Shown in pieces: positions 187-10,663 of a DNA stretch of 64,000 bases (position 1 is the first letter of the stretch; each line of letters opens with the position of its first letter). The notes under the pieces are model-generated. The model did no database searches, had not been told where the DNA came from, and saw only the letters and a list, made by a program, of their open reading frames with translations. The translations under genes and the position numbers were made by a program. Source of the DNA: Patescibacteria group bacterium (GTDB taxonomy: Bacteria; Patescibacteriota; Minisyncoccia; Phycocordibacterales; UBA9973); the NCBI GenBank assembly GCA_028868715.1, contig JAGWUB010000002.1:8430-72429 (forward strand). Reading direction: 5' to 3'.

Positions 187-579
187 TTGCATATTATGTC
201 AAACGAAAAAAAAAGTATATTGATAGTTGATGATAAAATTTCCACTATGTCTTCTTTGCTTAACATGCTTACAACTGAAGGCTTTAATGTGATCCAAGCG
301 ACAAATGGTGAGGAGGGCCTAAAAAATGCTTTTCAATTTCATCCTGATATTATTTTACTTGATATAGTGATGCCCATTATGGATGGTTTGACAATGCTTA
401 AAATTCTGAGACGTGATACTTGGGGGCGGAATGTCCCCGTTGTCGTTTTAACAAATTTAGATAATGACAATAGCGCTGTTGCTGCCCTTGATAGTTTAGC
501 TTACGATTACTTAATCAAAAATCAAACCAAGGATGAGGAGATAATGCAGATAATAAAAAATAAAATTAACCAGCAATGA
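187..579 (+). CDS. Stand-alone response-regulator receiver (CheY-like REC) domain protein
   Basis: ILIVDD…DIILLDIVMPIMDGLTML…VVVLTNL…YDYLIKN carries the phospho-acceptor Asp pocket and the conserved T/K positions of REC domains. There is no output domain. The stop overlaps the start of the next ORF (ATGA). Confidence 0.75.
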   Translation: MHIMSNEKKSILIVDDKISTMSSLLNMLTTEGFNVIQATNGEEGLKNAFQFHPDIILLDIVMPIMDGLTMLKILRRDTWGRNVPVVVLTNLDNDNSAVAALDSLAYDYLIKNQTKDEEIMQIIKNKINQQ

Positions 580-1289
580 TTCAATTTTCTAAAAAAATAA
601 TAATTATCTTTCTATTCTTCTTTATTTTTTTAAATTTTTCTCATACTTCTGCCGTAGAAAATATAACTCCAACCATAACATTATTTCCAACGATATATTA
701 TGCTGGGGATGAAGTTTTACATATAGAAGGACGGGCACAACCAAGCTCAAATGTTGAAATTGTTTTTAATTCAATTGACTGGGCGCCAAAAAGTTTTACC
801 GTAGGGAGTGATGCTAGTGGTAAATGGGTTTTTCTTCAGAGATTGTATCTAGAGGAGGGAAGGTGGGAAGTAAAAGCTCGAAATACCATAGACACGACAT
901 CTCAATCCGTTTGGTCTGATTCGGCGGATTTTATTTCTGTACCAACAGTTTTTGTGTTTGCTGGTATAAAAATAAAATTTTCTACGTTAAATGTACTTTT
1001 GATCGCTAGTTTAGCTTCTTTTGTGCTTATTATAATCCTATCAATTTTTAGATTTAAATCAGTTCAAAAAGAAGTCAGGGCTTTTCGCCTCGGATCTACC
1101 GAAAGACTAATAAAAGGAAGAATAGACGATGTGCGCCGAGATATAACCGAGGAATTGTGGCGTTTAGAGAAAAAACTAAAGCAAAGCGGATCTTTTACCC
1201 CAGAAGAGGCTGAGCATCGGGAAAAGCTCCTAGTGGAATTAAGAAAATATGAGAAAGAAATGGAGGAAGACATAATGGGTGTTTTGTAA
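576..1289 (+). CDS. Single-pass membrane protein: signal/TM segment, extracytoplasmic beta-rich domain, TM helix, cytoplasmic charged coiled-coil tail
   Basis: Hydrophobic N-terminus (IIIIFLFFFIFLNF), a second hydrophobic span (VLLIASLASFVLIIILSIF) and a K/E/R-rich C-terminus. Appears translationally coupled to the REC gene. No recognisable family. Confidence 0.45.
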   Translation: MIQFSKKIIIIFLFFFIFLNFSHTSAVENITPTITLFPTIYYAGDEVLHIEGRAQPSSNVEIVFNSIDWAPKSFTVGSDASGKWVFLQRLYLEEGRWEVKARNTIDTTSQSVWSDSADFISVPTVFVFAGIKIKFSTLNVLLIASLASFVLIIILSIFRFKSVQKEVRAFRLGSTERLIKGRIDDVRRDITEELWRLEKKLKQSGSFTPEEAEHREKLLVELRKYEKEMEEDIMGVL

Positions 1290-1319
1290 TAATAACCATA
1301 TAAGTGATATAATATAAGC

Positions 1320-2291
1320 ATGAAAAATATTTTCATTACAAGAGAAATACAAGCAGAAACCATAAAAACACTAAGAGACAAAGGATACAATATAACAATT
1401 GGTAAAAAAAAGACTCCTCTAACTCAACAAGAAATAATCAAAGAAATAAAGGGTAAAAACTATGATGCGGTCATTACCTTACTCACTGACAAAATAGACG
1501 GAAAAGTTTTTGACGCCAGCCCAGCTACCAAACTTTTCGCTAATTATGCTGTCGGCTATGACAATATTGACCTAGTCGAAGCTACTAAAAGAGGAATTAG
1601 TGTAACTAACACACCCGGAGATTATGTAGATGGTGTGGCCCAGCATGCGATAGCTCTTTTACTTGCTTTGATGTCTCGGCTCGTAGAAGCAGATACCTTT
1701 GTGCGAAAAGGAAAATATAAGGGATGGGATCCAATGCTTTTCCTGGGATATAAATTAAAAGGTAAAACTGTGGCTGTCATAGGTACCGGCAGAATAGGTG
1801 AACAAGTGGCCTACAAACTTCACTGTGGTTTTGGTACAAAAATAATTTATTACGATACAGTAAAAAATGAAAGAATAGAAAAAGATTGTGATGCGCAATT
1901 AATGACTTCTCTAGATGAAGCACTTTCGGTGGCGGATATAATTTCTATCCATGTTCCACTTTTACCTTCTACCCATCATCTAATAAATAAAGAAAATTTA
2001 AAGAAAATGAAACCTTCTGCATATATTATCAATACTTCCCGTGGCCCAGTGATTGATGAAAATGCTCTAGTCTATGCTCTTAAAAATGGTGAGATACGTG
2101 GTGCAGGTTTGGATGTGTATGAATTTGAACCAAAACTTGCAAAAGGGCTCACGAAATTAAAGAATACAGTACTGTCGCCCCACATCGCCTCAGCACAATT
2201 TGAATCAAGAGAAGAGATGGGAAGAATTTTAGCAGAAAATGTTATAGATTTTTTTGAAGACAGAATACCTAGAAATAAAGTCAATAAATAA
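1320..2291 (+). CDS. D-isomer-specific 2-hydroxyacid dehydrogenase (glycerate/hydroxypyruvate reductase or D-lactate dehydrogenase-like), NAD(P)-binding
   Basis: GYDNIDL…TNTPG substrate-domain motif, GTGRIGEQVA Rossmann motif, and the catalytic R/E/H context (…TSRGPVIDE…LDVYEFEP…SPHIASA). Confidence 0.8.
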   Translation: MKNIFITREIQAETIKTLRDKGYNITIGKKKTPLTQQEIIKEIKGKNYDAVITLLTDKIDGKVFDASPATKLFANYAVGYDNIDLVEATKRGISVTNTPGDYVDGVAQHAIALLLALMSRLVEADTFVRKGKYKGWDPMLFLGYKLKGKTVAVIGTGRIGEQVAYKLHCGFGTKIIYYDTVKNERIEKDCDAQLMTSLDEALSVADIISIHVPLLPSTHHLINKENLKKMKPSAYIINTSRGPVIDENALVYALKNGEIRGAGLDVYEFEPKLAKGLTKLKNTVLSPHIASAQFESREEMGRILAENVIDFFEDRIPRNKVNK

Positions 2292-2297
2292 AAACTT

Positions 2298-3752
2298 ATG
2301 GAACCGCAGATGGGAAAACTTATAGTGGCTAGGCATGGAGAGTCCGAGTGGAACAAAGCCAATTTATTTACCGGTAAAACTGATGTACATTTGAGCACGA
2401 ATGGATTTAAAGCATCAGAAGAATTGGGTGCTCTAATCAAAGATATTGAAATACATAAAGTTTTTGCTTCCACTCAAGCACGCACTATAGAGACAGAGGT
2501 CTGTATGATGAGTGGAGGAAAACAATGTTGTTCTGAAAATATACACTATTCCAGTGCGCTAAATGAAAGAGATTATGGAGATTATACTGGAAAAAATAAG
2601 CTAGAAAAAGAACATGAATTAGGGAAAGAGGAGTCTGATACACTTCGCCGTGCTTGGAATTATCCCATACCCAACGGGGAAACTTTAAAAATGGTATACG
2701 AGCGGTCAGTTCCTTTTTTTCTGCAAGAAATTTTACCAGTTTTAAGAAATAGCGAGAACGTGCTCATTGTTTCGCACGGAAATACCGTGCGATCTCTTTT
2801 GAAATACATAGAAAAAATTTCAGATATAGATATAGAGAAAGTAGAAATGCCATTTAATGAAATTTTTATTTACGACCTCGATCACGACGGACATTTTATA
2901 AATAAAGAAATAAGGAAAATAGGTGATAAAGTGAAGCCTGTGCAAGAAAGCAGAGTAAGGTCACTGACACAAATTGTAGCTACCATCGGTCCAGCTTCTT
3001 CTGAATACGTTGTGTTAAATGAAATGGTAAAAGCAGGTATGGATATGGCTAGACTAAATTTTTTCTGGCCGGAACCAGAAGAAATAAAAAAAAGAATTGG
3101 ACTGATAAAAAAAACTGCCAAAGAGAACAACACTAATATTAAAATATTAGTAGATTTACCAGGGCCTAGACTACAAGATAAAGACGGGCATATATATGAC
3201 ATCAATGCTTCTAAAGCTATAACCGCCAAAGACAAGGAATTAATAAAATTTGCGATAGAAAATGATGTAGATTACTTATCGGTATCCTTTGTTGGAAATA
3301 AACAAGATATTTTGGACTGTAGGGAGGAAATAAAAAAATGGAATGGTAGACAAAAAATCATCGCTAAAATTGAACGAGCAGTGGCTATAGAAAACATAGA
3401 TGAAATAATAGCAAATGCAGATGCAATCATGATAGCCAGAGGGGATTTGGGAAACGAAATACCCATTGAGAAAATACCATTTGCCCAAGATGATATTATT
3501 AAAAAATGTAAACAAGTTGGTAAACCAGTGATCACCGCAACCCAAATGCTCTATTCTATGAAAGACAACCCATCTCCGACTCGTGCTGAAGCCACCGACG
3601 TGGTCAATGCTGTCATGGAAGGTTCAGATGCTGTTATGCTCTCTGAGGAAACATCTATTGGAAAATATCCCATCAGGGCAGTGTATGTGATGGAGCACTT
3701 GGCGCTTGAAGCAGAATTACATTTAAAAAATCCTAAGTTCAACACTTTTTAA
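2298..3752 (+). CDS. Fusion protein: N-terminal 2,3-BPG-dependent phosphoglycerate mutase (histidine-phosphatase, ~aa 1-205) joined to a minimal pyruvate-kinase-like A-domain barrel (~aa 215-484) that lacks the B (lid) and C domains
   Basis: The N-terminal part has RHGESEWN, LNERDYGDYTG and SHGNTVRSL, the dPGM hallmarks. The C-terminal part has IVATIGPAS, MIARGDLGNEIP, ITATQMLYSM and PTRAEATDVVNAV, matching PK motifs. The NFSHG and DTKGPEIRT motifs are degenerate (ARLNFFWPE and VDLPGPRLQ), and there is no ~100-aa B-domain insertion or C-terminal domain. Confidence 0.7.
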   Translation: MEPQMGKLIVARHGESEWNKANLFTGKTDVHLSTNGFKASEELGALIKDIEIHKVFASTQARTIETEVCMMSGGKQCCSENIHYSSALNERDYGDYTGKNKLEKEHELGKEESDTLRRAWNYPIPNGETLKMVYERSVPFFLQEILPVLRNSENVLIVSHGNTVRSLLKYIEKISDIDIEKVEMPFNEIFIYDLDHDGHFINKEIRKIGDKVKPVQESRVRSLTQIVATIGPASSEYVVLNEMVKAGMDMARLNFFWPEPEEIKKRIGLIKKTAKENNTNIKILVDLPGPRLQDKDGHIYDINASKAITAKDKELIKFAIENDVDYLSVSFVGNKQDILDCREEIKKWNGRQKIIAKIERAVAIENIDEIIANADAIMIARGDLGNEIPIEKIPFAQDDIIKKCKQVGKPVITATQMLYSMKDNPSPTRAEATDVVNAVMEGSDAVMLSEETSIGKYPIRAVYVMEHLALEAELHLKNPKFNTF

Positions 3753-3754
3753 TT

Positions 3755-5002
3755 ATGGCTATTATTTCAAAACTAGAAGCCAAAGAAATTTTAGATTCTA
3801 GGGGGAACCCCACCGTCCAAGCCTCCTGTCGGCTACAAGATGGAACAATAGAAATTGCCTCAGTGCCATCTGGAGTAAGTACCGGTAAATATGAAGCATT
3901 TGAGCTTAGAGATAATGATATGAATAGATATAGAGGCAAAGGGGTAGAGAGGGCTGTGGGAAACATAAATGGAGAAATTTCAGAATTTTTAGTTGGAAAA
4001 GAATTGGACCAGAATACTCTAGATGAGGCTCTGATAAATTTAGATGGTACAAAAAATAAACAAAGACTTGGGGCAAATGCCATACTGGCAGTTTCGCTGG
4101 CTTTTGCGAGAGCCTCAGCTAAAGAGAAGGGAATACCACTTTTTAAGTACCTAGCAAATATATATTTTAAAAATGAAAATGAAAGAATGTATAAAATTCC
4201 ACAACCAGTTTTCAATACCATAGAGGGTGGTAAGCATTCAGATAGCGGACTATCTTTTCAGGAGTTTTTATTAGTTCCACAAGAATTTGAAAATATAAAA
4301 ATAAAATTAGAAGTAATAAAAAAGATATTTATATCCTTAAAAGATCTACTGGTAAAAGATGGGTATGAAGTAAATCTAGGTGATGAAGGTGGATTTTCTC
4401 CAAAGCTTTCATCTGATGAGAAAGTTTTAGAATATTTCAATATGGCTATTTCTTCTGCTGGCTATAATGCAGATCAAGTAAAAATTGGACTAGATGTTGC
4501 TGCCACGACTTTTTTCAAAGATGGCCTTTATCTTATAAAAGAGAATAAATTAAATACGCGAGAAATGATAGAAATGTATAAAAAATTATGTGAGCAATAC
4601 AAAATAATTTCAATTGAAGATGGGCTCAACGAAGAAGATTTTGCTGGGTTTGCGGAAATGAATAAAGCATTAGGTCAGATGATAAATATTGTGGGAGACG
4701 ATATTACTGTCACCAACATTGATCTAATTAAAAACGCAATAAATAATAAATCCATCAACACTCTCCTCATCAAACCAAATCAAATTGGCACACTTTCGGA
4801 AACTATGCAGGCCATCAGATTGGCAAAAGAAAATAATATTAAAACTTTCATATCTCACAGAGGTGGCGAGACAGAGGATACTTTTGTTGCTGATTTGGCA
4901 GTCGCCGTGGGCGCTGATTTTATAAAGGCCGGTGGCCCAACTAAGCCGGAGCGAATAGTAAAATATCATAGACTGATAGAGATAGAAGAGCTTATTAAAT
5001 GA
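3755..5002 (+). CDS. eno: Enolase (phosphopyruvate hydratase)
   Basis: AIISKLEAKEILDSRGNPTVQA…SVPSGVSTGKYEAFELRD is the canonical enolase N-terminus, and the C-terminal barrel motifs (IKPNQIGTLSET, SHRGGETED) are present. Starts 3 nt after the PGM::PK ORF. Confidence 0.9.
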   Translation: MAIISKLEAKEILDSRGNPTVQASCRLQDGTIEIASVPSGVSTGKYEAFELRDNDMNRYRGKGVERAVGNINGEISEFLVGKELDQNTLDEALINLDGTKNKQRLGANAILAVSLAFARASAKEKGIPLFKYLANIYFKNENERMYKIPQPVFNTIEGGKHSDSGLSFQEFLLVPQEFENIKIKLEVIKKIFISLKDLLVKDGYEVNLGDEGGFSPKLSSDEKVLEYFNMAISSAGYNADQVKIGLDVAATTFFKDGLYLIKENKLNTREMIEMYKKLCEQYKIISIEDGLNEEDFAGFAEMNKALGQMINIVGDDITVTNIDLIKNAINNKSINTLLIKPNQIGTLSETMQAIRLAKENNIKTFISHRGGETEDTFVADLAVAVGADFIKAGGPTKPERIVKYHRLIEIEELIK

Positions 5003-5033: not shown

Positions 5034-5855
5034 ATGTCTAAATTATCTGTGGGAATTGTTGGCTTGCCAAACGTTGGAAAATCTACGCTTTTTAATGCGC
5101 TTACTAAAAAGGGTGTGCCAGCAGAAAATTATCCTTTTTGTACCATTGATCCATCAGTAGGAATTGTTCCGGTTCCAGATGAAAGGCTAGATAAGCTTTC
5201 AGCTATGAGTAAGTCCAAGAAAACCATACCGGCGGTGGTAGAGTTTGTGGATATCGCAGGTCTGGTTAAAGGAGCTTCTACTGGAGCTGGACTCGGTAAT
5301 AAATTTTTGTCTCACATACGTGAGGTGGACGCTATTATTGAAGTGGTCCGAATTTTTGAGGATAAAGACATGATTCATGTGCACGATAAAGTGGACCCAC
5401 TTTTTGATATTGAAGTTATAAATTTTGAATTAGAACAAGCTGGAATTAAAAAGCCAACACTATATGTATTAAATACATCAGAAGCATCTGACAATGTAAA
5501 AAAAGATTTTATCTCAAGTCTTCCTGGGCCTTACTTAGAAGTAGACCCGATTTTTGGTACAGGATTAGATAATTTAATTAAATCTAGTTACGATTTATTG
5601 AACTTGATTACCTTCTTTACCACTGGAGAGGATGAGTCTAGAGCCTGGACAACCAAGCGGGACGCTAAAGCTCCAGAAGCAGGACGATCTATTCACAACG
5701 ATTTTAAGGAAAAATTTATTCGCGCGGAAGTAATAAACTGGAAAGATTTACTTGATTGTGGGTCTTATGCAGTTGCTCGATCAAAAGGACTAGTACGCAC
5801 CGAAGGCAAGGAGTACGTCGTACAAGACGGCGATGTTATCGAGTTTTTGGTGTAG
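5034..5855 (+). CDS. ychF: Ribosome-binding ATPase YchF/OLA1-like (Obg family), short form lacking the central helical insertion
   Basis: GIVGLPNVGKSTLFNALT P-loop, DIAGLVKGAS G3 region, and a C-terminal TGS-like segment (EGKEYVVQDGDVIEFLV). At 273 aa it is ~90 aa shorter than E. coli YchF. Confidence 0.7.
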   Translation: MSKLSVGIVGLPNVGKSTLFNALTKKGVPAENYPFCTIDPSVGIVPVPDERLDKLSAMSKSKKTIPAVVEFVDIAGLVKGASTGAGLGNKFLSHIREVDAIIEVVRIFEDKDMIHVHDKVDPLFDIEVINFELEQAGIKKPTLYVLNTSEASDNVKKDFISSLPGPYLEVDPIFGTGLDNLIKSSYDLLNLITFFTTGEDESRAWTTKRDAKAPEAGRSIHNDFKEKFIRAEVINWKDLLDCGSYAVARSKGLVRTEGKEYVVQDGDVIEFLV

Positions 5856-6981: not shown

Positions 6982-7851
6982 ATGTTTGAAAATTGGAAAA
7001 TATTTGAAGGTACTTACGTCAACCCCATCGTCCTAAAAGACAGAATGACAACGATAGAGGAGGTAAGACAAAGCTCCAAGGACAAAAATAAGGAAGTGAA
7101 TGAAGCTATTTTGGAGCGTTTGAAAATTATTGAAGTAAAATATTTATCAAAAGACAAAAAAGTTTATTTAGGGCAGATAGTCATCGATAAAGATTTGGCT
7201 GACAATATCTTGAAATTGTTTGATTATATTGAAAAAATGAATAACAACACTGATACAGCAGATGATAAGAAATTTTTTATAGAAAAAATAATACCGATAT
7301 CAAATGAAAAATATAAAGACAACGATGCTCTGTCTATGGAAGACAACAATACCTCTGCATTTAATTACAGATTAATAGAAGGAAAAAACAGATTATCTTC
7401 ACACGCCTTTGGTTTTTCTATAGATATAAACCCCAAGGATAATCCGGTTATGATTAATGGAGTAGTAAGTCAACCAAGAAATGGCAAGTATGATGAAAAA
7501 AATTCAAATACCTTAACCCCGCATCATAAGGTGGTAGAATTTTTAAAACAACGAGGATTTGAATGGGGTGGAGACTGGAAGTCTTCAAAAGATTACCATC
7601 ATTTTCAAAAGATCCTTCCCACCAAAGAGTACCTAAAGAATTATATTGATAACGCAATTGATAACACAGAAGAAAATATTTTAGATACACTTGGAAAGTT
7701 ATTTATCAATAGTTACAAATTGGAACATTTTCAGGCACTACTCAATTTTGTTAAAAATGATGTTATTATCAGCAAAATTGGCAAAGAACAATACTTGAAA
7801 TTTTTTAATCTTTTAAACGAGCAAATACATAATGCACAAATACGATCATAA
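6982..7851 (+). CDS. Hypothetical protein with a C-terminal LAS-type (peptidase M15 / VanY-like) metallopeptidase signature
   Basis: SSHAFGFSIDINP (H…D zinc-ligand motif) and GFEWGGDWKSSKDYHHFQ (WGG-W…D-HF motif of M15 D-Ala-D-Ala / L-Ala-D-Glu peptidases). The call rests on motifs only. Confidence 0.4.
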   Translation: MFENWKIFEGTYVNPIVLKDRMTTIEEVRQSSKDKNKEVNEAILERLKIIEVKYLSKDKKVYLGQIVIDKDLADNILKLFDYIEKMNNNTDTADDKKFFIEKIIPISNEKYKDNDALSMEDNNTSAFNYRLIEGKNRLSSHAFGFSIDINPKDNPVMINGVVSQPRNGKYDEKNSNTLTPHHKVVEFLKQRGFEWGGDWKSSKDYHHFQKILPTKEYLKNYIDNAIDNTEENILDTLGKLFINSYKLEHFQALLNFVKNDVIISKIGKEQYLKFFNLLNEQIHNAQIRS

Positions 7852-10663
7852 GAAAATTGAAAAAAAATGGCAAAATATTTGGGAGAAAAAGGGAGTTTAT
7901 CATGCCGATGATAAATCTAAGAAACCCAAGTATTATACTTTAATTGAATTCCCATATCCTTCCGGTGATGGCCTTCATGTAGGACACCCTAGGCCGTACA
8001 TAGGTATGGATGTTATTTCTAGAAAAAGACGAATGCAAGGGTACAACGTACTTTACCCGATAGGTTGGGACGCCTTTGGATTGCCGACAGAAAACTATGC
8101 CATAAAGACTGGTAAGGATCCCAGAGTGGTTACCAAGAAAAATACTGACACTTTTAGAAAACAAATAAAGTCTTTAGGGGTTTCCTTTGATTGGTCACGA
8201 GAAATTAATACCACTGACCCAAAATATTATAAATGGACCCAATGGATATTTTTACAATTTTATAAAAAGGGCTTAGCTTATAAGGCTAAGATGACCATTA
8301 ATTGGTGCCCAAAGGATAAAATAGGTTTAGCCAACGAAGAAGTGATAAATGGGTGTTGCGAGAGGTGTGGCACACCAGTTGAAAAGCGAGAGAAAGAACA
8401 GTGGATGCTGGGCATTACTAAATATGCTGAGAGATTGGATAAAGATTTAGATACCGTTGATTATTTACCACAAATAAAAATAGGGCAGAGGAATTGGATA
8501 GGGAAGTCTGTGGGCGCAGAGATAGAATTTAAAATATCTTCAACCAACGAAAGTATAAAAGTATTCACCACTCGACCAGACACTATTTTCGGCGCTACAT
8601 TTATTGCGTTAGCTCCTGAGGTGGCAAAGAAAATAACAGGTAAAGATTTTGGCATAAAAGTAGATACCGATCGAGAGAATAAAGAAAAAATTGGTATAGA
8701 TACTGGGTTGAAGGCTAAAAATCCTGCGAGCGGTGAACAAATACCCGTATTCGTAGTCAATTATGTATCCGCAGATTATGGCACAGGAGCTATAATGGGA
8801 GTACCGGCGCACGATGAAAGAGATTTTGAATTTGCGAAAAAATATAATTTACCAATTATAGATGTGGTAATACCCATTAGAGTTGATAATACCAATCCTC
8901 ATATTTCTGGTAAAAAAATTGTTGAAAGAAAAGCTGTTCAAGCAATAATTAGAAATCCAAAAAATGGAAAAATTCTTTGTTTAAATTGGAAGGCTCATCC
9001 ATGGACTACGTTTGTGGTTGGTGGAGTGGAAAAAGGAGAAGATATTCTAGAAGCCGCAAGACGAGAAGTGTTAGAAGAAACAGGTTATAAAAATATAAAA
9101 TTTATAAGAGTATTAGGTGGCCAAGTAAGAAGTGAGTTTTTTGCAGCACATAAAGACGAAAATAGAGTTGCATATTTTAATGCTATTTTATTTGAACTAG
9201 AGAACGAAGATAGGATCGAAGTTTCAAGAGAAGAAATTGAAAAACATGAAGTTGTATGGAAGGACCCAAAAGATATTCGTTCTGATACTATGCAATGTGG
9301 AGAGCTAGATATTTGGCTTGAAAGACTAAAAAATGAAAACGCTGTTAATGCAGAGAATGGTATTCTAACTAACTCTGGAAAATTTAATGGCATGGACAGT
9401 GAAAATGCTAAGAAGGAAATCATTAAATTTGTTGGTGTAGAGGAAAAAACAACCTTCAAGCTTCGGGATTGGATATTCTCTAGACAGAGGTACTGGGGTG
9501 AACCAATACCTATTATTCATTGTAGTAAATGTGGTATGGTTCCAGTTCCTGAAAAAGATTTGCCCGTAGAGCTTCCTAAGGTAAAAAATTATCAGCCGAC
9601 GGATAGTGGCGAATCACCACTGGCCAATATTTCTAAATGGGTCAATGTAAAATGTCCAAAGTGTAAAGGGGGAGCATTGAGGGAGACAGATACTATGCCA
9701 AACTGGGCAGGCTCAAGCTGGTATTACCTTAGATATACAGACCCTAAAAATAAAAATGCATTTGCTGACAAGAAAAATTTGAAATACTGGACACCAGTAG
9801 ATTGGTACAACGGTGGCAACGAACACACCACGCTTCATCTTTTATATTCTCGTTTTTGGCACAAATTTCTGTATGATTTAAAGCTCGTACCAACTTCCGA
9901 GCCGTACATGAAGCGTACTTCTCATGGCATGATTCTCGGTGAAGGGGGAGTAAAGATGTCTAAATCAGTCGGCAACGTCATCAACCCAAACGAAATCGTA
10001 AAAATATATGGAGCCGATACAATGCGAGTTTACGAAATGTTTATGGGGCCGTTCGATCAGTCTGTGGCTTGGAGTGACGAAGCGATCATAGGTCCACGAA
10101 GATTTTTAGAAAAAGTTTGGAAGTTGGGGGAGCTGGTAGAGAAAAATTCAGTCCGTGTCGGAGCCCGCTTGCGGGTAAAGCGGCGTGATTTTTCTCTACC
10201 AGATTCCACTATAGCTAAACTCTTAAACAAGACAATAAAAAAAGTTTCTGAAGATATAGAAGCTATGCATTTCAATACCGCCATTTCTGCAATGATGATA
10301 CTTGCTACAGAAATGCAAAAATCAGAATCTGTTTCAGAAAAAGATTTCAAAATGTTTTTACAAATTTTAGCCCCATTCGCACCACACATTACCGAAGATC
10401 TCTGGCAGACACTCGGAGAGAAAAAATCTATCGATCTTTCCGTTTGGCCCAAGTGGGATGAAAATTTAATTCAAGACGAAGAGGTGACCATAATAGTTCA
10501 AGTAAATGGCAAAGTACGCGGACAATTTAAAGCTTCTGTAGACATAAGTGAGGCTGAAGCTAAAAGCAAAGCAGAGAATTTACCAGAAGTTAGGAAATGG
10601 ATAACCACAGGTGTCAAGAGGTTTGTGTTTATCCCCAGAAAACTTATTAACATTGTAGTTTAG
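7832..10663 (+). CDS. leuS: Leucyl-tRNA synthetase carrying an inserted NUDIX hydrolase domain (~aa 365-485)
   Basis: HIGH (DGLHVGHPRPY) and KMSKS (VKMSKSVGNV) motifs, the TTRPDTIFGATF and GTGAIMGVPAHDERD editing-domain motifs, and RDWIFSRQRYWGEPIP. Between LPIIDVV and FKLRDW lies a ~145-aa extra segment containing a perfect Nudix box, GGVEKGEDILEAARREVLEETGY. Confidence 0.9.
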   Translation: MHKYDHKKIEKKWQNIWEKKGVYHADDKSKKPKYYTLIEFPYPSGDGLHVGHPRPYIGMDVISRKRRMQGYNVLYPIGWDAFGLPTENYAIKTGKDPRVVTKKNTDTFRKQIKSLGVSFDWSREINTTDPKYYKWTQWIFLQFYKKGLAYKAKMTINWCPKDKIGLANEEVINGCCERCGTPVEKREKEQWMLGITKYAERLDKDLDTVDYLPQIKIGQRNWIGKSVGAEIEFKISSTNESIKVFTTRPDTIFGATFIALAPEVAKKITGKDFGIKVDTDRENKEKIGIDTGLKAKNPASGEQIPVFVVNYVSADYGTGAIMGVPAHDERDFEFAKKYNLPIIDVVIPIRVDNTNPHISGKKIVERKAVQAIIRNPKNGKILCLNWKAHPWTTFVVGGVEKGEDILEAARREVLEETGYKNIKFIRVLGGQVRSEFFAAHKDENRVAYFNAILFELENEDRIEVSREEIEKHEVVWKDPKDIRSDTMQCGELDIWLERLKNENAVNAENGILTNSGKFNGMDSENAKKEIIKFVGVEEKTTFKLRDWIFSRQRYWGEPIPIIHCSKCGMVPVPEKDLPVELPKVKNYQPTDSGESPLANISKWVNVKCPKCKGGALRETDTMPNWAGSSWYYLRYTDPKNKNAFADKKNLKYWTPVDWYNGGNEHTTLHLLYSRFWHKFLYDLKLVPTSEPYMKRTSHGMILGEGGVKMSKSVGNVINPNEIVKIYGADTMRVYEMFMGPFDQSVAWSDEAIIGPRRFLEKVWKLGELVEKNSVRVGARLRVKRRDFSLPDSTIAKLLNKTIKKVSEDIEAMHFNTAISAMMILATEMQKSESVSEKDFKMFLQILAPFAPHITEDLWQTLGEKKSIDLSVWPKWDENLIQDEEVTIIVQVNGKVRGQFKASVDISEAEAKSKAENLPEVRKWITTGVKRFVFIPRKLINIVV

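What the first reader, a model, noticed from the sequence alone, without database searches (positions are those of the whole stretch)
1320..5002. Phosphoglycerate-mutase::pyruvate-kinase-like fusion embedded in a compact lower-glycolysis module (2-hydroxyacid DH - PGM::PK - enolase)
ORF 2298-3752 joins a complete dPGM histidine-phosphatase domain (RHGESEWN, LNERDYGDYTG, SHGNTVRSL) to a pyruvate-kinase A-domain barrel (IVATIGPAS, MIARGDLGNEIP, ITATQMLYSM, PTRAEATDVVNAV). That barrel has no B/lid domain and no C-terminal regulatory domain, and its K+/substrate motifs are degenerate (NFSHG becomes NFFWPE; DTKGPEIRT becomes DLPGPRLQD). Enolase starts 3 nt downstream, and a D-2-hydroxyacid dehydrogenase sits immediately upstream. 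The physical fusion of the 3PG-to-2PG and PEP-to-pyruvate catalysts flanking enolase suggests a channelled mini-pathway. Alternatively the PK-like barrel has been repurposed, for example as a PEP-utilising/HpcH-like or regulatory pseudo-enzyme. The upstream dehydrogenase could then be the fermentative sink (D-lactate) or a glycerate entry point.
Basis: partly seen in the sequence, partly recalled or inferred. Interest (0 to 1): 0.7.

Follow-up and report, generated by a model that had tools for sequence, protein, structure and literature searches.

The report
Lid-less mini pyruvate kinase fused to phosphoglycerate mutase
A tiny-genome (Patescibacteria) bacterium encodes a real, conserved fusion of phosphoglycerate mutase to a stripped-down pyruvate kinase that has lost its lid and regulatory domains but keeps every catalytic residue; this uncharacterised enzyme form may explain why pyruvate kinase seems to be missing from many such genomes.

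Summary
ORF 2298-3752 (484 aa) joins a short-form dPGM domain (aa 6-207) to a pyruvate-kinase A-domain barrel (aa 223-475). The ~111-aa B/lid domain is replaced by a ~30-aa hairpin, and there is no C domain.

It is not an assembly artefact. More than 100 protein clusters from independent assemblies share the architecture, and 8 have the reverse domain order. In five relatives the two halves are separate genes, three of them with an ATGA stop/start overlap.

DLPGPR resembles the K+-independent PK signature (Leu113, a basic residue at 117). All PEP/Mg2+/phosphoryl-transfer residues are invariant across the family.

The mini-PK forms a Patescibacterial clade that also occurs standalone (~265 aa). 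Single examples are fused to enolase and to glycerate-2-kinase. It always sits in operons with dPGM, glycerate kinase, enolase and/or a 2-hydroxyacid dehydrogenase.

Best reading: a bifunctional dPGM plus a minimal, unregulated, K+-independent PK for 3PG-to-pyruvate conversion. The phosphoryl acceptor is inferred to be ADP and is untested. A less likely but interesting alternative is PEP-dependent priming of the dPGM histidine. I found no literature on a lid-less PK. I classify it as a new variant of a known kind; interest is about 0.6.

The parts
1284..1313 (+). Promoter-like site (TTGTAA, 18-nt spacer, TATAAT, with TG) just upstream of the dehydrogenase start. Candidate operon promoter.
   Evidence: It is the best-scoring + strand match (10/12). 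The total number of matches in the region is at chance level, so this is only suggestive.
1320..2291 (+). D-isomer 2-hydroxyacid dehydrogenase of the GRHPR-like subfamily. First gene of the module.
   Evidence: Pfam 2-Hacid_dh_C and 2-Hacid_dh. The best NCBIfam hit is glyoxylate reductase PRK13243, 348 bits, below its cutoff of 455. The best PDB hit is P. horikoshii glyoxylate reductase 2dbq at 280 bits, against 157 bits for D-LDH. A homologue at 49-57% identity lies directly next to the PGM/PK genes in 12 related loci (11 distinct; L011 duplicates L002).
2298..3752 (+). The dPGM::mini-PK fusion ORF (484 aa).
   Evidence: AF2 model: pLDDT 91.3, pTM 0.88.
2313..2918 (+). Short-form 2,3-BPG-dependent phosphoglycerate mutase domain (aa 6-207). 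The catalytic His13 lies in the RHGESEWN motif.
   Evidence: TIGR01258 scores 138.9 bits, above its cutoff. It aligns over its full length (aa 7-205) to the 211-aa S. pombe dPGM 1fzt. R12, H13, N19, R62, E90, Y93, K101, R118, G161 and N162 are invariant, and H160 is at least 90% conserved, in 49 family members.
2919..2963 (+). Inter-domain linker (IGDKVKPVQESRVRS). It corresponds to the stop/start junction in relatives where the genes are split.
   Evidence: Low pLDDT (about 59) in block 211-220. In L009, L010 and L012 the same junction is an ATGA stop/start overlap. Translation checked.
2964..3722 (+). Pyruvate-kinase A-domain (beta/alpha)8 barrel without B and C domains ('mini-PK').
   Evidence: Pfam PK 252 bits. 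Foldseek best hits are PKs, at rmsd 1.1-2 A over about 258 residues and 41% identity. R252, N254, D286, K357, E359, R381, D383, T415, S449 and E451 are invariant. By motif register these correspond to rabbit muscle PK R72, N74, D112, K269, E271, R293, D295, T327, S361 and E363.
3153..3212 (+). Hinge and beta-hairpin that replace the B/lid domain (DLPGPRLQDKDGHIYDINAS). It holds L287 (position 113), R291 (position 117) and the clade-invariant H298.
   Evidence: (strands 291-294 and 297-300). All 39 Patescibacterial mini-PKs compared carry GPR followed 4-7 residues later by His.
3755..5002 (+). Enolase, starting 2 nt after the fusion's stop codon.
   Evidence: TIGR01060 491.5 bits. Pfam Enolase_N and Enolase_C. 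It holds the same position in L009, L010, L012 and L013, and in L004 after a toxin-antitoxin insertion.
5034..5855 (+). Short YchF-type GTPase (273 aa), 31 nt downstream. Possibly co-transcribed; not part of the metabolic module.
   Evidence: Pfam MMR_HSR1 and YchF-GTPase_C. No terminator-like site lies between it and enolase.

Best explanation
The ORF encodes a bifunctional lower-glycolysis enzyme of a Patescibacteria (Parcubacteria/Paceibacteria-type) bacterium.

The N-terminal domain is a short-form cofactor-dependent phosphoglycerate mutase (3PG to 2PG). The C-terminal domain is a minimal pyruvate kinase, consisting only of the catalytic A barrel.

The barrel keeps the complete PEP/Mg2+/phosphoryl-transfer machinery. 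In place of the K+ site it has the K+-independent arrangement: Leu113 plus a basic residue, here Arg291, at position 117. The lid is reduced to a beta-hairpin carrying an invariant His298. I infer that this His substitutes for the lid's phosphate-binding Lys206. With no C domain, the enzyme should be unregulated and not a C-C-interface tetramer.

Together with the enolase encoded 2 nt downstream it converts 3PG to pyruvate, with ATP formation inferred. The dehydrogenase encoded upstream most likely re-oxidises NAD(P)H on a 2-oxoacid (pyruvate or hydroxypyruvate).

The fusion arose by loss of the stop codon in a closely spaced dPGM-PK gene pair (in three relatives the stop and start overlap) and is facultative in the clade.

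Shown: domain identity, residue conservation, loss of B and C, clade-wide conservation, operon linkage, and interchange between fused and split forms.
Inferred: catalytic activity of both halves, ADP as the acceptor, the roles of R291 and H298, and a physical complex with partner enzymes.
For: Domain identity and boundaries.

Catalytic residues. In 49 aligned family members all are invariant. In the 120 best clusters the K-x-E, RGD, ATQ and LS-x-E motifs are present in 120/120 and R-x-N in 119/120.

Structure. The AF2 model has pLDDT 91.3 and pTM 0.88 and shows a regular barrel and hairpin. Foldseek's best hits are PKs at rmsd 1.1-2 A.

K+-independent type. The nearest canonical PKs carry DLxGPK[IL]R. 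The literature signature is Leu113/Lys117 (PMC4284704, PMC8835810). PMC8835810 also reports that K+-independent M. tuberculosis PK reaches its active state by a Lys72 flip, without bending of the hinge loop. That gives a rationale for why a lid could be dispensable in this lineage.

Pathway context.
- Dehydrogenase, PGM, PK, enolase in that order: the window, L009, L010, L012 and L013, plus L004 with a toxin-antitoxin pair inserted before enolase.
- Dehydrogenase and PGM::PK without enolase nearby: L005, L014.
- PK::PGM followed by the dehydrogenase: L001, L002, L008.
- PGM, PK, enolase: L006. PGM followed by a PK::enolase fusion: L007.
- Glycerate-2-kinase, (enolase), PK: L018-L020. One glycerate-kinase::PK fusion: P0135.

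Every fusion or operon partner makes or uses the substrates around PEP.

A glycerate-kinase::PK fusion pairs an ATP consumer with a presumed ATP regenerator, which favours ADP as the acceptor.

Split genes with an ATGA overlap show that each half works as an autonomous polypeptide.
Against: No natural or engineered lid-less PK has been shown to be active, as far as I could find.

Two phosphate-binding residues of the nucleotide site, as I recall them from PK-ATP structures, are gone: Arg119 becomes Gln293, and Lys206 lay in the deleted B domain. His77 is replaced by Trp257.

Position 117 is Arg, not the Lys that has been characterised. Positions 114 (Pro) and 120 (Asp) do not match the K+-independent consensus Gln114 and Leu/Ile/Val120.

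The dehydrogenase is GRHPR-like rather than D-LDH-like, so the proposed end of the pathway is uncertain.

I could not test whether this genome has another PK outside the 64-kb window. There is none inside it.
Confidence: 0.6

Rival explanations
1. The lid-less barrel works mainly as a PEP-dependent protein-histidine kinase. It transfers the phosphoryl group of PEP onto the catalytic His13 of the attached (or co-translated) dPGM. This primes the mutase without 2,3-BPG and releases pyruvate without making ATP.
For: Removing the lid exposes the PEP site to a protein substrate.

The dPGM and mini-PK are joined in both orders (97 PGM-to-PK and 8 PK-to-PGM clusters). When split they are closely spaced, with a stop/start overlap in three of five genomes.

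AF2 places the two domains in one confident arrangement (pTM 0.88).

There is an experimental precedent. Human PKM2 phosphorylates PGAM1 His11 from PEP, and only the de-tetramerised forms do so efficiently (PMC11183095). The mini-PK has no C domain for tetramerisation.
Against: The same mini-PK clade occurs in operons that contain glycerate-2-kinase and enolase but no dPGM within about 8 kb (L015, L016, L018-L020). One example each is fused to enolase and to glycerate kinase. Its core role therefore cannot depend on dPGM.

Discarding the PK-step ATP would be costly for a fermenter.

The reverse-order fusion gave no confident interface (pTM 0.55 with only 8 sequences).

I could not inspect the model coordinates, so the distance between His13 and the PEP site is unknown.
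Confidence: 0.12
2. The barrel binds PEP or pyruvate but has been repurposed to a different chemistry or acceptor. Examples: PEP phosphatase, oxaloacetate decarboxylase, or phosphoryl transfer from PEP to glycerate, 3PG, Pi or AMP.
For: The nucleotide-contacting lid residues are lost and His77 is Trp. A new invariant His298 appears only in this clade. There is a weak HpcH/HpaI-like signal (E 0.0019). Canonical PKs are known, from my own knowledge, to have side activities such as oxaloacetate decarboxylation.
Against: The sequence is 44-60% identical to canonical PKs over the barrel. Lys269, which is needed for phosphoryl transfer, and the proton-donor Thr327 are both invariant. The HpcH score of 17.9 bits is below its cutoff. 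The operon logic (enolase immediately adjacent) fits PEP-to-pyruvate conversion as part of energy metabolism.
Confidence: 0.15
3. The PK-like half is a catalytically dead scaffold or regulatory pseudo-enzyme attached to an active dPGM.
For: Loss of two of the three canonical domains. NCBI names the exact protein only 'histidine phosphatase family protein'.
Against: Every catalytic and metal-binding residue is invariant across sequences down to about 50% identity, and also in standalone 265-aa versions. Pseudo-enzymes normally lose such residues.
Confidence: 0.05
4. The fusion is a sequencing or assembly frameshift that joins two separate genes.
For: Close relatives do have two separate genes, three of them with only a 4-nt ATGA overlap. 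A single indel would therefore fuse them.
Against: An independent assembly is 100% identical across the junction. About 100 further clusters from many samples and sources carry the same in-frame fusion with a 15-aa linker. The junction DNA has no long homopolymer run.
Confidence: 0.02

Closest known systems
Canonical K+-independent bacterial pyruvate kinases (for example M. tuberculosis PK 5ws9, P. aeruginosa PykA 6qxl, rabbit muscle PK E117K mutant 7r6y)
   Same: The same A-domain barrel: rmsd about 1-2 A and about 40% identity. The same catalytic residues. Leu at position 113 and a basic residue at 117 in the DLxGP[KR] motif (PMC8835810).
   Different: No B/lid domain (31 aa against about 111) and no C domain. 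Position 117 is Arg rather than Lys. Arg119 becomes Gln and His77 becomes Trp. A new invariant His sits in the hairpin. Mini-PK genes are operon-linked or fused to partner enzymes, whereas canonical PK genes of other Patescibacteria are not.
Short monomeric dPGM of Schizosaccharomyces pombe (PDB 1fzt, 211 aa)
   Same: It aligns over its full length (aa 7-205 to 9-208, E 4.5e-33). Like the window domain it is a short dPGM of about 200 residues, and all dPGM active-site residues are kept.
   Different: Here the domain is covalently joined to a PK barrel. Position 3 of the RHG motif varies in the family (G, Q, H, A...).
Human PKM2-PGAM1 histidine-kinase relationship (Wang et al. 2024, PMC11183095)
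   Same: A PK and a dPGM-type mutase that interact physically. De-oligomerised PK is the form competent for PEP-to-His transfer.
   Different: That case is a regulated, transient interaction of two full-length proteins and depends on PGAM1 Tyr119 phosphorylation. Nothing here shows His phosphorylation; the resemblance is a lead, not a test.
Other glycolytic gene fusions, for example PGK-TPI in Thermotoga (own knowledge, not tested here)
   Same: Fusion of adjacent operon genes of the same pathway in a compact genome.
   Different: PGK and TPI are both full-size enzymes. Here one partner has lost two of its three domains, and the two fused steps are not consecutive.
B-less but C-containing PKs in Dehalococcoidales-labelled MAGs (L024, L027, L043)
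   Same: The B domain is replaced by a 16-20-aa connector.
   Different: They keep the PK_C domain (shown for L024 and L027). They have a different junction motif (DLPGYKRRSGG), lack the hairpin His and are only 41-43% identical. This looks like an independent loss of the lid.

Membership tests
Pyruvate kinase (EC 2.7.1.40; Pfam PF00224 + PF02887; TIGR01064) | PK-type (beta/alpha)8 A-domain barrel | tested here: met
   PF00224 252 bits, E 8.5e-75. Foldseek best hits are all PKs, rmsd 1.1-2 A.
Pyruvate kinase (EC 2.7.1.40; Pfam PF00224 + PF02887; TIGR01064) | Catalytic and metal residues Arg72, Asn74, Asp112, Lys269, Glu271, Asp295, Thr327, Ser361, Glu363 (rabbit muscle PK numbering) | tested here: met
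   R252, N254, D286, K357, E359, D383, T415, S449 and E451 are invariant in 49 sequences. The motifs are present in 119-120 of 120 clusters. The mapping to rabbit numbering is by motif register and rests on my own knowledge plus PMC8835810.
Pyruvate kinase (EC 2.7.1.40; Pfam PF00224 + PF02887; TIGR01064) | B (lid) domain carrying Arg119 and Lys206 | tested here: not met
   The segment is 31 aa, against 109-113 aa in almost all canonical PKs examined. Pfam profile positions between the two matched stretches (those before position 172) are unmatched. Position 119 is Gln.
Pyruvate kinase (EC 2.7.1.40; Pfam PF00224 + PF02887; TIGR01064) | C-terminal alpha/beta (PK_C) domain | tested here: not met
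   No PF02887 hit. The protein ends about 10 residues after the last A-domain helix.
Pyruvate kinase (EC 2.7.1.40; Pfam PF00224 + PF02887; TIGR01064) | Score above the curated equivalog cutoff | tested here: met
   TIGR01064 scores 310.2 against a cutoff of 306.4, so it is marginal. All other PK equivalog and subfamily models score below their cutoffs.
Pyruvate kinase (EC 2.7.1.40; Pfam PF00224 + PF02887; TIGR01064) | Catalysis of PEP + ADP to pyruvate + ATP | not testable with these tools
   Requires an enzyme assay.
K+-independent PK subgroup (Oria-Hernandez signature L113/Q114/K117/(L,I,V)120) | Leu113 and Lys117, with Gln114 and an aliphatic residue at 120 | tested here: inconclusive
   L287 matches Leu113. 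Position 117 is basic, but Arg (R291) rather than Lys. Position 114 is Pro and position 120 is Asp. Signature taken from PMC4284704 and PMC8835810.
2,3-BPG-dependent phosphoglycerate mutase (EC 5.4.2.11; TIGR01258) | RHG catalytic His, second His (HGN), the Glu of the ERxYG motif, and substrate-binding Arg/Lys/Tyr/Asn residues | tested here: met
   R12, H13, N19, R62, E90, Y93, K101, R118, G161 and N162 are invariant. H160 is at least 90% conserved.
2,3-BPG-dependent phosphoglycerate mutase (EC 5.4.2.11; TIGR01258) | Score above the curated cutoff, and full-length similarity to a proven dPGM | tested here: met
   138.9 bits against a cutoff of 81.7. Aligns over aa 7-205 to S. pombe dPGM 1fzt.
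2,3-BPG-dependent phosphoglycerate mutase (EC 5.4.2.11; TIGR01258) | 2,3-BPG-dependent mutase activity | not testable with these tools
   Requires an enzyme assay.
HpcH/HpaI aldolase or other non-PK PEP/pyruvate TIM barrels | Profile score above the gathering threshold and better than PK | tested here: not met
   PF03328 scores 17.9 bits, below its cutoff of 25, and far below PK at 252 bits.
Glyoxylate/hydroxypyruvate reductase (GRHPR) versus D-lactate dehydrogenase, for the upstream gene | Best match and equivalog cutoff | tested here: inconclusive
   GRHPR-type hits are best: PRK13243 at 348 bits, below its cutoff of 455, and PDB 2dbq at 280 bits. D-LDH scores only 143-157 bits. Substrate preference is not testable here.

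The most novel reading that the evidence does not exclude
The lid-less, C-domain-less PK barrel is a dual-purpose PEP phosphotransferase whose open active site accepts a protein histidine. In the fusion (and in the split gene pairs) it phosphorylates the dPGM catalytic His13 directly from PEP. That makes the mutase independent of 2,3-BPG and gives feed-forward control of lower glycolysis. It would be a hard-wired bacterial counterpart of the PKM2-to-PGAM1 His11 reaction and a mechanistic bridge between pyruvate kinases and the phospho-histidine PEP-utilising enzymes (PPDK, Enzyme I).
Probability: 0.12. Interest if true: 0.85.

Novelty: new variant of a known kind. Interest (0 to 1): 0.6.

Why it matters
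1. Pyruvate kinase is a textbook three-domain enzyme whose lid is thought to be needed to bind the nucleotide and close the active site. A large natural clade that has lost both the lid and the regulatory domain, yet keeps every catalytic residue, would define the minimal catalytic unit of PK. It would also give a direct test of what the lid contributes.

2. Surveys of Candidate Phyla Radiation metabolism report PK in only about a third of genomes and PGM as missing from shallow Parcubacteria clades, possibly because divergent forms fall below the HMM thresholds used (PMC7304191). This protein is only 4 bits above the TIGR01064 cutoff, and NCBI names it just 'histidine phosphatase family protein'. 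Part of that patchiness may therefore be an annotation artefact. That would change the inferred ATP yield and fermentation capacity of these organisms.

3. The mini-PK is repeatedly fused to dPGM, in both orders, and single examples are fused to enolase and to glycerate-2-kinase. This points to a lower-glycolysis enzyme complex in ultra-small cells. It also offers a natural system for examining the debated link between PK and PGAM histidine phosphorylation.

Tried and rejected
- Literature. Six full-text searches found no description of a PGM-PK fusion or a lid-less PK: PGM/PK fusion with Patescibacteria or CPR; Parcubacteria with PK and 'B domain'; Parcubacteria with PK, enolase and LDH; 'lid domain' or 'truncated' PK; CPR with PK and glycerate kinase. 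Neither does a 2025 glycolysis review.
- Foldseek against afdb50 was unavailable. I therefore could not list UniProt/AFDB twins or check whether the inter-domain geometry is reproduced.
- AF2 on a reverse-order fusion (P0096, 8-sequence alignment) gave pLDDT 75 and pTM 0.55. This is uninformative about a shared PGM-PK interface.
- Model coordinates and PAE are not exposed. The key question, whether the dPGM domain sits over the barrel's active site, could not be answered.
- Neighbour-joining tree of A-domain columns. The Patescibacterial mini-PKs are monophyletic on the full data but in only 7 of 40 bootstraps. The reverse-order fusions are not monophyletic. The number of independent fusion events is therefore unresolved.
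- Test for a second PK. There is none in the 64-kb window. In the GTDB scan no genome with a mini-PK also contributed a canonical PK to the best 80 loci.
- Rejected: frameshift artefact; a non-PK TIM-barrel family; a pseudo-enzyme.
- The terminator-like hairpin at 2772-2792 inside the ORF is within chance expectation (5 found, 3.9 expected).

Full report
**1. Observation**

The window is low-GC (about 0.31-0.41 over the first 12 kb) and gene-dense. ORF 2298-3752 (+) encodes 484 aa.

Pfam finds His_Phos_1 at aa 8-201 (E 4.7e-33). It finds the PK barrel PF00224 (E 8.5e-75) in two stretches, the second covering aa 306-462 and matching profile positions 172-328. There is no PK_C hit. NCBIfam places the N-terminal half above the dPGM cutoff (TIGR01258, 138.9 against 81.7 bits). 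The whole protein is just above the pyruvate-kinase equivalog cutoff (TIGR01064, 310.2 against 306.4 bits).

Against solved structures, aa 219-298 align to S. aureus PK residues 20-102 and aa 299-474 to residues 181-357. The B domain is therefore excised, and the chain stops at the end of the A domain.

A D-isomer 2-hydroxyacid dehydrogenase (1320-2291) ends 6 nt upstream, and enolase (3755-5002, TIGR01060 491 bits) begins after a 2-nt spacer. A promoter-like site lies just before the dehydrogenase, and no terminator-like site separates the genes.

**2. Not an artefact, and not unique**

The exact protein is in NCBI as 'histidine phosphatase family protein [Patescibacteria group bacterium]'. 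It lies on a 288-kb contig. An independent Logan assembly of SRR32006839 is 100% identical over 2674 nt, including the junction.

The 120 best 90%-identity clusters (50-77% identity) almost all carry both Pfam domains. They come from NCBI, JGI, ENA and Logan and are named Nomurabacteria, Parcubacteria, Paceibacterota or Minisyncoccia. By motif order, 97 are PGM-to-PK and 8 are PK-to-PGM.

In five GTDB species representatives (L009, L010, L012, L013, L014) the two halves are separate genes in different frames. They are joined by an ATGA stop/start overlap in L009, L010 and L012, and by a 7-8-nt spacer in L013 and L014. The window's 15-aa linker (IGDKVKPVQESRVRS, low pLDDT) occupies that junction.

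The fusion is therefore a stop-codon loss in a closely spaced, in some genomes overlapping, gene pair. Fused and split forms are interleaved in a weakly supported neighbour-joining tree.

**3. The dPGM half**

It aligns end to end with the 211-aa S. pombe dPGM (1fzt; aa 7-205 to 9-208). R12, H13, N19, R62, E90, Y93, K101, R118, G161 and N162 are invariant, and H160 is at least 90% conserved, in 49 family members. I see no reason to doubt mutase function.

**4. The PK half is a 'mini-PK'**

AF2 (49-sequence alignment) gives pLDDT 91.3 and pTM 0.88. The model shows a regular barrel, with a two-stranded hairpin (291-294, 297-300) where the B domain should be. Foldseek's best PDB hits are all PKs, at rmsd 1.1-2 A over about 258 residues and about 41% identity.

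The residues that bind PEP and Mg2+ and stabilise phosphoryl transfer are invariant. They are R252, N254, D286, K357, E359, R381, D383, T415, S449 and E451, corresponding to rabbit muscle PK R72, N74, D112, K269, E271, R293, D295, T327, S361 and E363.

- W257 at the His77 position in 113 of the 119 clusters in which the motif was found.
- L287 at position 113.
- R291 at position 117.

Leu113 together with a basic residue at 117 is the published hallmark of K+-independent PKs (PMC4284704, PMC8835810). The nearest canonical relatives read DLxGPK[IL]R. What is truly lost is Arg119 (now Gln) and everything in the lid, including Lys206.

A His seven residues after R291 (H298) is present in all 39 Patescibacterial mini-PKs compared. 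I infer, without coordinates, that it points into the active site as a substitute for a lid residue.

PMC8835810 reports that K+-independent M. tuberculosis PK reaches its active conformation by flipping Lys72 (position 117) rather than by bending the hinge loop. This offers a rationale for why a lid could be lost in this lineage.

**5. The mini-PK is a clade with several partners**

An exhaustive phmmer search with the PK half alone returned several kinds of single-stretch, lid-less hits:
- standalone proteins of 251-269 aa (P0121, P0122, P0127 and others);
- one mini-PK::enolase fusion (P0123, 679 aa);
- one fusion of a DUF4147+MOFRL protein (glycerate-2-kinase family) to mini-PK (P0135, 690 aa).

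The last two fusions are single observations. P0123 is confirmed in an NCBI MAG (L007).

Gene contexts:
- Dehydrogenase, PGM(::)PK, enolase: the window, L009, L010, L012, L013, and L004 with a RelB/YafQ pair inserted before enolase.
- Dehydrogenase and PGM(::)PK with no enolase nearby: L005, L014.
- PK::PGM followed by the dehydrogenase: L001, L002, L008.
- PGM, PK, enolase: L006. PGM followed by PK::enolase: L007.
- Enolase then PK: L015, L016.
- Glycerate kinase, enolase, PK: L018.
- Dehydrogenase, glycerate kinase, (enolase), PK: L019, L020.

Every Patescibacterial mini-PK locus has at least one of these partners. By contrast, canonical B- and C-containing PK genes from other Patescibacteria have none of them within about 8 kb (L028, L030, L031, L037, L041, L045, L048, L053, L067, L077, L080).

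Separately, L024, L027 and L043 (the first two titled Dehalococcoidales MAGs) have PKs with a 16-20-aa connector in place of the lid, a different junction motif and no hairpin His. L024 and L027 retain PK_C. This looks like an independent loss of the lid.

**6. The dehydrogenase**

The window's enzyme is closest to archaeal glyoxylate/hydroxypyruvate reductases (2dbq, 280 bits). PGDH scores about 203 bits and D-LDH about 157 bits. It is below every NCBIfam equivalog cutoff.

In the glycerate-kinase-type operons the dehydrogenase belongs to a different subfamily and is D-LDH-like (5z20, 215 bits, with VanH/D-LDH models scoring highly).

Two readings remain:
- Both subfamilies reduce the pathway's end product, acting as a fermentative sink.
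- They interconvert hydroxypyruvate and glycerate upstream of glycerate kinase.

The window has no glycerate kinase, which slightly favours the sink reading here. Sequence similarity favours hydroxypyruvate or glyoxylate as the substrate. This is unresolved.

**7. Mechanism and rivals**

- Most likely (about 0.6): a bifunctional dPGM plus a minimal, unregulated, K+-independent PK. Acting with the adjacent enolase it converts 3PG to pyruvate, with ATP formation inferred.
- Rival, about 0.15: the barrel has been repurposed to a different acceptor or a different chemistry.
- Rival, about 0.12: PEP-dependent phosphorylation of dPGM His13. It is made attractive by the both-orders fusion, the exposed active site, the confident AF2 domain packing and the PKM2-PGAM1 precedent (PMC11183095). 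It is weakened by mini-PK operons that lack dPGM.
- Rival, about 0.05: a catalytically dead pseudo-enzyme.
- Rival, about 0.02: an assembly artefact.

**8. Novelty and significance**

Family members are in public databases with automated names, but I found no paper describing them.

Jaffe et al. (PMC7304191) report PK in only about a third of CPR genomes. They say they cannot rule out that divergent enzymes escaped their HMM thresholds, and suggest this specifically for PGM in shallow Parcubacteria clades. This protein sits right at the TIGR01064 threshold.

I classify it as a new variant of a known kind: a lid-less, C-less PK, often fused. Interest is moderately high, at 0.6.

Noticed in passing
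window 7832-10663 (+): The leucyl-tRNA synthetase (943 aa) carries a NUDIX hydrolase domain (Pfam PF00293, aa 366-482, E 8e-15). It is inserted directly after the LeuRS editing-domain match (aa 220-354).
   Followed up: no
window 5034-5855 (+): The YchF-type GTPase is only 273 aa (MMR_HSR1 at aa 6-147, YchF C-terminal domain at aa 191-272). From my own knowledge typical YchF is about 360 aa, so the central helical insertion seems to be missing. This may be another example of domain minimisation in this genome.
   Followed up: no
L004 1-72 (gene runs off the locus; Nomurabacteria MAG JAPLXQ010000010.1): A 1176-aa class-I aminoacyl-tRNA synthetase product has a recorded His_Phos_1 hit between two tRNA-synt_1 hits. 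A histidine-phosphatase domain is apparently inserted into an aaRS.
   Followed up: no
L004 7509-8049 and 9476-10513: A RelB/YafQ toxin-antitoxin pair is inserted between the PGM::PK fusion and enolase. A LAGLIDADG endonuclease gene follows enolase. Mobile elements have invaded the otherwise conserved module.
   Followed up: no
L024 118-1281, L027 7119-8294, L043 1349-2494: These PKs (L024 and L027 from Dehalococcoidales-titled MAGs) lack the B/lid domain, with a 16-20-aa connector such as 'DLPGYKRRSGG'. L024 and L027 retain the PK_C domain. This looks like an independent lid loss outside Patescibacteria.
   Followed up: partly
P0126 (691 aa), P0124 (1051 aa): Unusual PK architectures. P0126 is a full A+B PK followed by a second, divergent lid-less PK barrel where the C domain would be. 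P0124 has two PK barrels followed by an adenylate kinase domain.
   Followed up: no
L023 8001-9629: A dPGM homologue (50% identity) is directly followed by the GRHPR-like dehydrogenase (49% identity), with no PK nearby. The link between dPGM and this dehydrogenase therefore persists without the PK.
   Followed up: partly
P0096 aa 1-28, P0098 aa 1-50: The reverse-order fusions have hydrophobic N-terminal extensions, predicted as a helix at aa 2-28 of P0096 with low pLDDT. They lie upstream of a conserved 'MNS(K/R)xQI' motif. They are probably mis-called start codons, but a membrane anchor is possible.
   Followed up: no
window 576-1289 (+): A 237-aa ORF with a hydrophobic N-terminus, a second hydrophobic segment and a charged C-terminal tail. 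It has no Pfam match.
   Followed up: no
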